From NCBI RefSeq assembly GCF_041248615.1, contig NZ_CP158426.1: a stretch of 64,000 bases of DNA; one strand, given 5' to 3'. The stretch comes from Escherichia coli. GTDB lineage: Bacteria > Pseudomonadota > Gammaproteobacteria > Enterobacterales > Enterobacteriaceae. Below are positions 33,058-33,681 of the stretch, one piece after another. Numbering within the stretch: position 1 is the stretch's first letter; every line of letters starts with the position of its first letter. The position numbers and the translations under genes are program-made. The notes beneath the pieces were generated by a model. That model saw only the letters and a program-made list of their open reading frames with translations, was not told the origin of the DNA and made no database searches.

Positions 33058-33681
33058 ATGTTTGATGCATCCCTGCTGAATCTGCCGTGGGCAACACTGG
33101 TGACACTGACCAGTGGATACATCGGCTATTTTATTGCGAACGTGGGCCTGAAAGACCATCACAAGCCCATCGAGGTGACATTTACGACGCTGATTTTTGG
33201 CCTGCTGTCAATGATGGTTTACCAGGCTGTTATGTGGGCAGGTCTGAATTCGTGGCTTGCGACACCACCAGCGCTTCTTTGCGCTTTTATTTACGGTGCA
33301 TTGTGGCGCAGATACGGTCGCAAATGGATGTACAGATTCCTGTGGAATCATGATATTTCGTGGTCTGATGACACCAGCTCAGCATGGCAGTCATTGTTCA
33401 ATCAGATGGATTTCACTTTTTCTGAAATCTATGTATATCTTAAGGATGGCTCTGTTTTACTTTCACTAGCACCCGGGCGATTTGCAGGACGGCCTAACGG
33501 TCCTGTCACGTTAGGTAATAAGGGAGATATAATCTTATACGTCACGCACCGGACTACAGTCGGGAGCAATATCTGGACAGAATGCGATAGTGGTGTGGCA
33601 GATGACGGATGGGGAACTCTGGCAACCTATATACCTGCAGAACAGATTGCCAGAGTTGATATCCGACGAGTTTGTCGGTAA
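33058..33681 (+). CDS. Membrane protein of unknown function
   Basis: Start at ATG 33058 after ggagg; three N-terminal hydrophobic helices followed by a soluble domain. Confidence 0.55.
   Translation: MFDASLLNLPWATLVTLTSGYIGYFIANVGLKDHHKPIEVTFTTLIFGLLSMMVYQAVMWAGLNSWLATPPALLCAFIYGALWRRYGRKWMYRFLWNHDISWSDDTSSAWQSLFNQMDFTFSEIYVYLKDGSVLLSLAPGRFAGRPNGPVTLGNKGDIILYVTHRTTVGSNIWTECDSGVADDGWGTLATYIPAEQIARVDIRRVCR

What the first reader, a model, noticed from the sequence alone, without database searches (positions are those of the whole stretch)
33058..33681. Membrane protein of unknown function at the prophage junction
A 207-aa protein with three N-terminal transmembrane helices and a soluble C-terminal domain sits immediately after the early-operon terminator with its own RBS. 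Membrane proteins at prophage ends are frequently superinfection-exclusion or abortive-infection factors.
Basis: inference. Interest (0 to 1): 0.4.

Follow-up and report, generated by a model that had tools for sequence, protein, structure and literature searches.

The report
Prophage membrane protein with hidden microprotein partner
The 207-aa membrane protein is real, optional cargo at the very end of a Mu-like transposable prophage, and it is always paired with an unannotated, convergently encoded ~50-aa proline-tailed microprotein; the pair travels on many phages and mobile elements, and its function is still unknown but most likely lies in phage-host conflict.

Summary
Observation confirmed. 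ORF 33058-33681 has GGAGG 4 nt upstream of its ATG, follows a hairpin/T-run terminator, and has 3 TM helices plus a soluble β-domain. It lies 368 bp from the exact right end (34049) of a 37.6-kb Mu-like transposable prophage inserted in a YadA-like gene.

New findings:
1. The C-domain is a predicted Sm/LSm-like small β-barrel, cytoplasmic by the positive-inside rule. The family is phrog_12870, a divergent relative of DUF6338, with 522 clusters.
2. In every locus with enough downstream sequence the gene is paired with a convergent 32-66-aa hydrophilic microprotein with a PxxP/poly-Pro + Lys tail (here 33700-33852, minus strand, unannotated; phrog_15726). It is present in 21 of 23 loci versus 2.2 expected, and both genes are under purifying selection.
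3. The cassette is optional. About 490 E. coli records share near-identical gemA-mor without it; both inspected examples end ~140 bp after mor.
4. A dyad identical in design to this phage's four late-promoter boxes lies just upstream (6 hits in 64 kb, 0.02 expected), suggesting Mor-driven lytic expression. The microprotein has a σ70-like promoter.
5. Elsewhere the pair sits in late operons of other phages, on integrative or conjugative elements, and beside Thoeris/TIR/Abi genes.

Function is inferred: a conflict module of membrane effector plus microprotein regulator. No match to known defence families.

The parts
32720..32962 (+). orf80: optional small ORF between mor and the cassette, ending in a Pro-rich tail (...GDSPPPRD)
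   Evidence: ORF. Unannotated here, but a counterpart is annotated in CFS3292 and MS1657. Pro-rich C-tails recur in the upstream small ORFs of 5 lineages. No Pfam or PHROG hit.
32959..32974 (+). Mor-type activator dyad TTAAT-GCCC-TTTAATA (two 5-bp half-sites around a G/C-rich spacer)
   Evidence: The pattern YTAAHNNNNWTTAAWA was derived only from the four late-operon promoters. It gives 6 hits in 64 kb against 0.02 expected, and this is the only hit outside the late promoters. The design matches the published Mor site (PMC4390567). Similar boxes lie upstream of homologs in divergent lineages.
32989..33027 (+). Hairpin plus T-run: intrinsic terminator of the early operon. The transcription start predicted from the dyad geometry (~33009) falls inside it.
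   Evidence: 14-bp stem, T-run. The hairpin and TTTTTTTATTC are conserved upstream of homologs. The start-site position is an inference from the dyad-to-(-10) spacing of the late promoters.
33049..33053 (+). Shine-Dalgarno GGAGG, 4 nt before the ATG
33058..33681 (+). Target CDS: 207-aa inner-membrane protein with 3 TM helices (N-out/C-in) and a cytoplasmic Sm/LSm-like β-barrel. Family phrog_12870, a divergent DUF6338 relative.
33700..33852 (-). Partner microprotein CDS: 50 aa from the second ATG (53 aa if from 33861). Hydrophilic, convergent, with its stop codon 18 nt from the target's stop. phrog_15726. Unannotated in this genome.
   Evidence: Partner-like ORF present in 21 of 23 loci versus 2.2 expected. 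dN/dS 0.14-0.27. The 50-aa form is in protein databases on 362 contigs. AAGGA Shine-Dalgarno 8 nt upstream.
33897..33926 (-). σ70-like promoter TTGAAA-18-TAGAAT, reading inward from the prophage end into the microprotein gene and antisense to the target
   Evidence: the only promoter-like site in 32600-34150. It is conserved 37-44 nt upstream of the partner ATG in 8 of 10 Mu-like lineages.
33862..34049 (.). Conserved terminal segment of the transposable prophage. It carries two ATTTATCTCA repeats (34007-34016 and 34030-34039), which are putative transposase sites, and the terminal ...TGATCA.
   Evidence: Mirror-image repeats occur at the left end (record 4543950 onward).
34050..34055 (.). Target-site duplication TCTTCA (5 or 6 bp) in the interrupted YadA-like gene

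Best explanation
SHOWN:
- The ORF encodes an inner-membrane protein with 3 TM helices, predicted N-out/C-in, and a predicted cytoplasmic Sm/LSm-like small β-barrel.
- It is one half of a conserved two-gene cassette. The other half is a convergently encoded, disordered microprotein (32-66 aa across loci). That microprotein carries [NS]-Y-x-P-type motifs (D-Y-S-E-x-P-K in enterobacteria) and a PxxP/poly-Pro + Lys/Arg C-terminal tail.
- The cassette is dispensable cargo in the slot between mor and the right end of BcepMu-type transposable prophages. It also occurs on other phages, on integrative and conjugative elements, and next to defence genes.

INFERRED:
- It is a mobile-element conflict module of the exclusion or abortive-infection kind.
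- The membrane protein is the effector acting at the cytoplasmic membrane, probably as an oligomer, as Sm-fold proteins usually are.
- The microprotein is its cytoplasmic regulator or antagonist. It may act by docking its proline tail on the β-barrel, by antisense or convergent transcription, or both.
- In this prophage the microprotein is made constitutively from a σ70-like promoter in the prophage end.
- The membrane gene is switched on by Mor together with the late genes, from a Pm-like promoter that overlaps the early terminator.
For: Anatomy.

Cargo status:
- About 490 E. coli records match gemA-mor at ~96.5% but lose similarity near the end of mor; both inspected examples end ~140 bp after mor.
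- 118 genomes carry a ~85%-identical version at many insertion sites.
- The gene holds the same slot in 30 of 33 IMG/VR loci, including lineages with Mor 36-41% and TnpA ~50% identical.

Pairing:
- A partner-like ORF is present in 21 of 23 loci versus 2.2 expected. The remaining loci have it once the length and start filters are relaxed.
- Every scanned partner ORF has a Shine-Dalgarno sequence.
- dN/dS is 0.14-0.27. It matches phrog_15726 and is in protein databases.

Regulation:
- The late-promoter dyad has its only extra match just upstream of the target.
- Mor is the sole Mor/C homolog in the prophage.
- The geometry agrees with the published Mor site.
- The partner's σ70-like promoter is conserved.
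- In non-Mu phages the gene ends or interrupts late operons on the same strand.

Conflict context: the pair lies directly beside ThsB/ThsA and a TIR-TIR-caspase-like cluster. It also lies on elements with AbiEii, AAA/DUF2326, SLFN_AlbA_2 and DUF4145.
Against: - There is no sequence or profile match to any known exclusion, Abi or candidate defence family, for the query or for 53 diverse members.
- No phenotype data exist and there is no literature.
- Mor-type control argues against classical lysogen-expressed superinfection exclusion.
- The -10 element at the position expected from the dyad is poor in this window (GCAATG/CAATGG), and the right half-site is degenerate in some lineages. The promoter is therefore not proven.
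- A fused-chain AlphaFold test of microprotein docking gave no signal: partner pLDDT 26-32.
- The window's own microprotein has a degenerate tail (SSLKDKK).
- The defence-gene neighbourhoods are few and were not tested against a background rate.
Confidence: 0.4

Rival explanations
1. Accessory lysis-timing factor (holin-like or antiholin-like). A late-expressed 3-TM, N-out/C-in membrane protein would modulate membrane permeabilisation at the end of the lytic cycle, with the microprotein acting as its cytoplasmic inhibitor.
For: - The Mor-type box implies co-expression with the lysis and late genes.
- The topology equals that of class I holins.
- There are weak structural matches of the TM part to LydA/class-I holins in BFVD (E 0.02-0.5).
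- In other phages the gene sits in late operons.
Against: - The phage has its own holin and transglycosylase cassette 12 kb away.
- The gene is dispensable among near-identical prophages.
- It is never adjacent to lysis genes in the loci examined.
- It occurs outside phages, next to Thoeris/TIR and relaxase genes.
- It is larger than typical holins and has a conserved folded cytoplasmic domain.
- The holin matches are generic 3-helix hits.
Confidence: 0.12
2. Addiction (toxin-antitoxin-like) module that stabilises mobile elements. The membrane protein would be a toxin and the labile disordered microprotein its antidote.
For: - It is a two-gene cassette confined to mobile elements of many kinds.
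- The small disordered partner has its own constitutive-type promoter.
- One family member weakly hits the CptA membrane-toxin family (E 2.9e-4).
Against: - The convergent arrangement with separate, differently regulated promoters is unlike known type II/IV TA operons.
- There is no homology to known TA families.
- Mu-like transposable prophages do not need segregational stabilisation.
- The CptA hit is a single member and lies in the TM region.
Confidence: 0.15
3. Miniature MscS-like or other ion-conducting channel, or a lysogenic-conversion factor that alters host membrane physiology without a role in phage conflict.
For: - Three TM helices (N-out/C-in) followed by a cytoplasmic Sm-like β-domain is the core layout of MscS, from my knowledge of MscS structures.
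- Sm-fold proteins typically form 6-7-mer rings.
- Glycine and aromatic residues are conserved in the TM helices.
Against: - No MS_channel Pfam hit in the query or in 24 + 53 family members.
- Polar pore-type residues are not conserved across the wide family.
- This reading does not explain the obligatory microprotein partner or the Mor-type control.
Confidence: 0.1

Closest known systems
DUF6338 (Pfam PF19865) / phrog_12870
   Same: The query matches phrog_12870 over its full length (1e-98). Relatives give weak DUF6338 hits: 14 of 24 close homologs at E<=1 (best 1.4e-6) and 10 of 53 diverse members at E<=0.01. Size is similar (~200 aa) and the architecture is single.
   Different: The query itself does not hit DUF6338 even at E<=1. 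Both families are uncharacterised, so membership says nothing about function. No paper assigns a role.
Phage morons and prophage-encoded inner-membrane exclusion proteins (e.g. P22 SieA, HK97 gp15, T4 Imm; named from my knowledge and the reviews listed)
   Same: It is an extra gene that is present or absent between conserved neighbours of closely related prophages. It has its own transcription signals, encodes an inner-membrane protein, and lies at a prophage end or inside late operons.
   Different: There is no sequence or structural relationship. The promoter looks activator-dependent (lytic) rather than lysogen-constitutive. It needs, or at least always accompanies, a second convergent microprotein gene. 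No exclusion phenotype is known.
Mu middle operon (Pm promoter driving gene C, immediately downstream of mor)
   Same: The position directly after mor and the early terminator is the same. The dyad has two 5-bp half-sites around a G/C-rich spacer and there is no -35 element, as described for the Mor site centred at -43.5 (PMC4390567). The same dyad sits at this phage's four late promoters.
   Different: The gene driven is not a C-type activator but a membrane protein. The spacer is 4 bp rather than 6 bp. The -10 is not clear in this window. In this phage a single Mor-family protein appears to serve all the late promoters.
Sm/LSm small β-barrels, including peptide-binding LSm domains (LSm14, EDC3) and SH3-like barrels
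   Different: The domain is fused to a 3-TM anchor. There is no detectable sequence similarity. RNA binding and ring formation are untested. The one docking test run here was negative.
Two-component prophage defence with a membrane and a cytoplasmic partner (mycobacteriophage Butters gp30/gp31; RexA/RexB of lambda; from my knowledge)
   Same: It is a prophage-borne pair consisting of a membrane protein and a small cytoplasmic protein.
   Different: There is no homology. Those pairs are co-directional and expressed in the lysogen, whereas this pair is convergent with abutting stop codons and appears to be differentially regulated.

Membership tests
phrog_12870 | Full-length match to the family HMM | tested here: met
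   E 1e-98, residues 1-205 against profile positions 1-204 of 210
DUF6338 (PF19865) | Score above the Pfam gathering threshold for the family HMM | tested here: not met
   The query gives no hit at E<=1. Only some relatives give weak hits: 14 of 24 at E<=1 (best 1.4e-6) and 10 of 53 at E<=0.01. It is a related but distinct branch.
MscS-type mechanosensitive channel | MS_channel (PF00924) profile match | tested here: not met
   No hit in the query or in 24 + 53 family members
MscS-type mechanosensitive channel | Structural superposition of TM3 plus the β-domain on solved MscS | tested here: not met
MscS-type mechanosensitive channel | Heptameric pore | not testable with these tools
   No multimer prediction was available
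Class I holin | Three TM helices, N-out/C-in | tested here: met
   Positive-inside analysis and the AF2 helices. Prediction only.
Class I holin | Small size (about 70-150 aa) and a gene within the lysis cassette next to the endolysin | tested here: not met
   The protein is 207 aa with a folded C-domain. The lysis cassette (holin 20951-21301, SLT 20214-20948) is 12 kb away on the other arm. The gene is never next to lysis genes in the other loci examined.
Moron (extra gene in a phage genome) | Present or absent between conserved neighbours in closely related phages | tested here: met
   ST131-type prophages end ~140 bp after mor (two inspected). 118 genomes carry the cassette.
Moron (extra gene in a phage genome) | Own promoter active in the lysogen, and own terminator | tested here: inconclusive
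   No σ70 consensus promoter lies upstream; there is a Mor-type dyad instead. No terminator lies between the two convergent genes. Expression was not measured.
Known or candidate anti-phage defence systems (PADLOC-DB v2) | Profile match to a system component | tested here: not met
   No hit for the query. Among 53 diverse members there is only one chance-level hit.
Superinfection exclusion / abortive infection (functional class) | Reduced plating or aborted growth of a challenging phage when the gene is expressed | not testable with these tools
   Needs plaque and one-step growth assays
Mor-dependent (Pm-type) promoter | Dyad of two 5-bp inverted repeats with a G/C-rich spacer upstream of the core promoter, and no -35 hexamer | tested here: met
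   TTAAT-GCCC-TTTAA at 32959-32972. It matches the pattern derived from the four late promoters only. No σ70 -35/-10 pair was found.
Mor-dependent (Pm-type) promoter | Recognisable -10 hexamer at the right distance (dyad centre near -43.5) | tested here: inconclusive
   The late promoters have CATGCT, CAAACT, CATACT or AATACT exactly 28 nt after the second half-site. The window has GCAATG/CAATGG there. Other lineages have CACGGT or CAACAT.
Sm/LSm fold | Structural similarity of the domain to Sm/LSm barrels | tested here: met
Sm/LSm fold | Ring oligomer and RNA binding | not testable with these tools
   -
Type II toxin-antitoxin operon | Co-directional, co-transcribed gene pair | tested here: not met
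   The pair is convergent, with stop codons -10 to +43 nt apart, in all loci

The most novel reading that the evidence does not exclude
The pair is a previously unrecognised, widely mobile two-gene anti-phage or abortive module. An oligomeric membrane effector with a cytoplasmic Sm/SH3-like barrel is held closed by a proline-tailed microprotein. Translation of that microprotein (poly-Pro, EF-P-dependent) or its turnover reports the state of the cell. Convergent transcription adds a second layer of control. In Mu-like phages the module has been captured under the Mor late-gene switch.
Probability: 0.2. Interest if true: 0.75.

Novelty: new variant of a known kind. Interest (0 to 1): 0.5.

Why it matters
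If the cassette is a conflict module, it would add a compact two-gene system to the catalogue of phage-borne exclusion and abortive devices. That system comprises a membrane protein and a microprotein, and it is missing from current defence databases. It would also show how a transposable phage wires such cargo into its late-gene activator.

The microprotein partner matters beyond this case. It is unannotated in this genome, is 32-66 aa long, and is found in every locus where it could be looked for. It shows how gene pairs are missed when small convergent ORFs are ignored.

The mor-to-end slot of BcepMu-type prophages may be a cargo hotspot worth mining. The late-promoter dyad defined here gives a testable Mor regulon for this common E. 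coli prophage family.

Tried and rejected
- Pfam, NCBIfam and PADLOC on the query gave nothing. PADLOC on 53 diverse members gave nothing.
- A profile search of PDB sequences gave only E>0.3 noise.
- MscS-like mini-channel idea: rejected as membership. There is no MS_channel hit and no MscS among the structural matches.
- Membrane-anchored metal enzyme idea (conserved HH, SxSDD, D157, H164): dropped, because these polar residues are not conserved in the 53-member alignment, where mostly Gly, Trp, Tyr and Pro are invariant.
- Microprotein tail docking on the β-barrel: a fused-chain AF2 run with 20 paired sequences left the partner at pLDDT 26-32. This gives no support, but the test was weak because the MSA was shallow and the window's tail is degenerate.
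- σ70 promoter for the target: none found.
- Second Mor/C paralog in the prophage: none.
- tblastn against 50,697 phage records found only one distant hit, Synechococcus phage Ssp-JY41 at the record end.
- Literature searches on DUF6338, BcepMu and Mu-like prophage exclusion returned nothing on this gene.
- The 119-aa plus-strand ORF 33590-33949 overlapping the region is not conserved and is displaced by the minus-strand microprotein gene.

Full report
**1. The observation.**
The ATG is at 33058, the stop ends at 33681, the product is 207 aa, and GGAGG lies 4 nt upstream. It follows a 14-bp hairpin with a T-run at 32989-33027. RefSeq annotates it as hypothetical protein WP_106631221.1 of E. 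coli NRZ14408. AlphaFold2, run on a 24-sequence alignment, gives mean pLDDT 79.9. The model has three long helices (11-28, 37-60, 65-97), a poorly defined linker, and a β-rich domain at 119-206. Charge distribution gives an N-out/C-in topology: the N-terminus and loop 2 carry no Lys or Arg, loop 1 is KDHHK, and RRYGRKWMYR follows TM3. The β-domain is therefore predicted to be cytoplasmic.

**2. The surroundings.**
The window carries most of a 37.6-kb Mu-like transposable prophage.
- Its late genes run leftward from ~21300 (holin, SLT transglycosylase, terminase, portal, head, contractile tail, baseplate).
- Its early operon runs rightward from ~24100 (Ner-like protein, DDE transposase A, ExeA-type B, Gam, GemA, Mor).
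- As far as I recall, this divergent layout is that of BcepMu/SalMu-type phages. I could not confirm this from a paper in the library.

The right end is exact.
- Megablast shows similarity to two other genomes stopping at window 34049, beyond which lie different host genes (an amino-acid permease and malZ).
- The sequence to the right of 34049 is the N-terminal part of a YadA-like gene belonging to a neighbouring lambdoid prophage. Its C-terminal part lies 37.6 kb to the left.
- Comparison with the uninterrupted gene in strain GF4 shows a TCTTCA duplication (5 or 6 bp). The terminal sequences are TGATG... and ...TGATCA, with two ATTTATCTCA-type repeats ~23 bp apart at each end.

The gene is therefore the last plus-strand gene of the element, 368 bp from its tip.

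**3. It is optional cargo.**
- In complete E. coli genomes, about 490 records match gemA-mor at ~96.5% identity and lose similarity near the end of mor.
- In the two examples inspected, the prophage ends ~140 bp after mor with no gene in between.
- 118 genomes carry a ~85%-identical version of the whole segment at many different insertion sites, with or without a small ORF between mor and the gene.
- In IMG/VR, 30 of 33 loci encoding a relative have it directly after mor at the end of a Mu-like early arm. These include lineages whose Mor is only 36-41% and whose transposase is ~50% identical to the window's.
- The slot and its occupant are thus old, but dispensable.

**4. What the protein is.**
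- Pfam, NCBIfam and PADLOC give nothing for the query.
- PHROGs gives a full-length match to phrog_12870, of unknown function.
- An exhaustive profile search finds 522 clusters at 50% identity, nearly all ~205 aa and full length.
- Some relatives give weak DUF6338 hits: 14 of 24 close homologs and 10 of 53 diverse ones. This is a divergent sister of that uncharacterised family. The literature says nothing on its function.
- The TM part gives only generic matches, including weak ones to class-I/LydA holins in BFVD.
- The layout (3 TM helices plus a cytoplasmic Sm-like domain) recalls the core of MscS. No MS_channel profile hit or MscS structural match was found, so I do not file it there.
- Across the wide family, mostly Gly, Trp, Tyr and Pro are invariant. 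This argues for a structural, binding or assembly role rather than catalysis.

**5. The missed partner.**
Immediately downstream, on the opposite strand, is a small ORF at 33700-33861. Its likely start is the second ATG at 33852, which has AAGGA 8 nt upstream. It is unannotated here, annotated as hypothetical in strain DA33135, and present in protein databases as a 50-aa protein on 362 contigs.
- A comparable ORF exists in every locus that has enough downstream sequence.
  - This covers all the Mu-like lineages and the non-Mu phage contexts.
  - It also covers seven alphaproteobacterial genomes (Devosia, Pseudochrobactrum, Cypionkella, Bradyrhizobium and others) and the metagenomic contigs.
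- With fixed criteria (convergent, 40-90 aa, stop within -15 to +50 nt of the target's stop), 21 of 23 loci have one against 2.2 expected from shuffles.
- The two misses and one atypical case carry 32-49-aa poly-Pro ORFs that the filters excluded.
- These microproteins share no strong sequence identity but have common features:
  - They are hydrophilic and low in complexity.
  - They carry one to three [NS]-Y-x-P-x-[TV] motifs (D-Y-S-E-x-P-K in enterobacteria).
  - They end in a PxxP or poly-Pro segment followed by Lys, Arg or Asp (PPPPKK, PPPSPKKK, PPLPLKKK, PPPAPDKD and similar).
- Three of them hit phrog_15726. None hits Pfam.
- All the scanned partner ORFs have Shine-Dalgarno sequences.
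- dN/dS is 0.14-0.27, against 0.09-0.20 for the membrane gene. It is a real gene.
- The window's own copy has a degenerate tail (SSLKDKK; CFS3292 has SPPKDKK).
- When a small ORF lies upstream of the membrane gene, it also ends in a Pro-rich tail. The window's orf80 at 32720-32962 ends in ...SPPPRD.

**6. Regulation.**
- The four late operons of this phage are preceded by a dyad TTAAW-N4(G/C-rich)-WTTAA: holin at 21356-21371, protease/head at 14157-14172, tail at 8247-8262 and baseplate at 1896-1911.
- In each case the second half-site begins exactly 28 nt before a CATGCT, CAAACT, CATACT or AATACT hexamer.
- A pattern written from those four sites alone gives six matches in the 64-kb window against 0.02 expected. 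The only match outside the late promoters is 32959-32974, just upstream of the target.
- Mor is the only Mor/C-family protein in the prophage.
- The published Mu Mor site is a 16-bp dyad of two 5-bp inverted repeats with a G/C-rich spacer, centred at -43.5, at a promoter that has a -10 but no -35 (PMC4390567).
- Using the late-promoter geometry, the predicted start is ~33009, inside the loop or 3' arm of the early terminator hairpin. Mor-driven transcripts would then escape the terminator that stops the early transcript.
  - This step is inference.
  - The -10 at the expected place is poor here (GCAATG/CAATGG) and better in other lineages (CACGGT, CAACAT).
  - The right half-site is degenerate in some lineages.
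- A box followed by a hairpin and T-run recurs after mor in divergent lineages. In the Serratia type it precedes a small ORF plus the gene.
- No σ70-type promoter precedes the target.
- The only σ70-like site in the region is TTGAAA-18-TAGAAT at 33926-33897 on the minus strand. It points from the prophage end into the microprotein gene, and it is conserved 37-44 nt upstream of the partner's ATG in 8 of 10 Mu-like lineages.
- In non-Mu phages the membrane gene sits at the end of, or inside, late morphogenesis operons on the same strand. Examples are terminase-portal-MuF-ORF-gene, capsid...tape measure-gene, and terminase-portal-capsid-connector-gene.
- Taken together, this points to expression with late genes rather than from the quiescent prophage.

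**7. Where else the pair lives.**
- After Dam-type methylases.
- Directly downstream of a Thoeris ThsB/ThsA pair.
- Beside a TIR-TIR-caspase-like cluster.
- On an integrase-bearing element with AbiEii.
- Between a relaxase and an AAA/DUF2326 protein, and next to a Mu-type transposase.
- Near SLFN_AlbA_2 and DUF4145.

This distribution, across mobile elements of many kinds with defence genes as frequent neighbours, is typical of conflict systems. The sample is small and was not tested against a background.

**8. Explanation and rivals.**
- I commit, at about 40%, to a conflict module.
  - The membrane protein is the effector.
  - The microprotein is its regulator.
  - In Mu-like phages the module is wired to Mor.
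- How the regulation works is open.
  - One idea is that the PxxP+ tail docks on the Sm/SH3-like barrel, since some LSm domains do bind short peptides. A fused-chain AlphaFold run did not support this, although that test was weak.
  - The abutting convergent genes also suggest antisense or transcriptional interference.
  - Poly-Pro tails would make translation depend on EF-P.
- The rivals are a lysis-timing accessory (12%), an addiction module (15%) and a channel or lysogenic-conversion factor (10%).
- None of these can be settled without experiments.

**9. Comparison and novelty.**
The protein belongs to phrog_12870 and is related to DUF6338; both are uncharacterised. As far as the libraries and literature available here show, the following are not described:
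- the obligatory convergent microprotein;
- the Sm-like cytoplasmic domain;
- the optional mor-to-end slot;
- the Mor-type box.

I rate this a new variant of a known kind (phage accessory membrane modules). It is of moderate interest: the anatomy is solid and the function is not established.

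Noticed in passing
window 34051-34863 (-) and record NZ_LT599825.1 4543569-4543949: The Mu-like prophage transposed into a YadA-like adhesin-type gene. 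That gene is itself cargo at the end of a neighbouring lambdoid prophage (DinI-like and sigma-like genes on one side, tail fibre genes on the other), so this is a prophage inside a prophage's moron. The YadA-like gene also contains three tandem 33-aa (99-bp) repeats.
   Followed up: partly
window 1896-1911, 8247-8262, 14157-14172, 21356-21371 (all minus strand): Four late-operon promoters share a dyad TTAAW-N4-WTTAA exactly 28 nt upstream of a CAWRCT-type -10. This is a ready-made definition of the Mor regulon for this common E. coli prophage family.
   Followed up: yes
window 33896-34040: About 145 bp of the prophage's terminal segment, including the σ70-like promoter and one transposase-type repeat, occurs at ~88% identity in ~109 places on large E. 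coli plasmids. These copies are unannotated. In pSA186_2 the copy lies among IS1 and IS3 fragments next to a LysR gene, so it looks like a solo-end remnant.
   Followed up: partly
window 32720-32962 (+): orf80 lies between mor and the Mor-type box and is unannotated here. It is Cys-rich (CxxC-like pairs) and ends in SPPPRD. Counterparts in other lineages end in PPPPPKC, PSRPPRPLSKG or MPLPPVPRE, echoing the proline tail of the downstream microprotein.
   Followed up: partly
window 39459-40667 (-): An IS1414 (IS256-like) transposase is inserted in the host-specificity (J-like) tail gene of the lambdoid prophage and splits it (38771-39424 and 40577-43999). That prophage is probably defective.
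   Followed up: no
window 36233-38038 (-): The lambdoid tail-fibre protein has very long collagen-like Gly-X-Y repeat arrays (GPxGxKGxTGxRG...). This produces spurious long ORFs in the other frames and on the opposite strand.
   Followed up: no
L004 6479-7050 (record 4544024-4544595), just left of the window: The Gin-like invertase at the left end of the Mu-like prophage is frameshifted, next to tail-fibre and tail-fibre-assembly genes. The host-range switch is probably locked.
   Followed up: no
L063 1940-2200: In one distant locus the membrane gene is followed by two tandem convergent poly-Pro micro-ORFs (P8...P4QKP and P8...PPPQKKG) instead of one.
   Followed up: no
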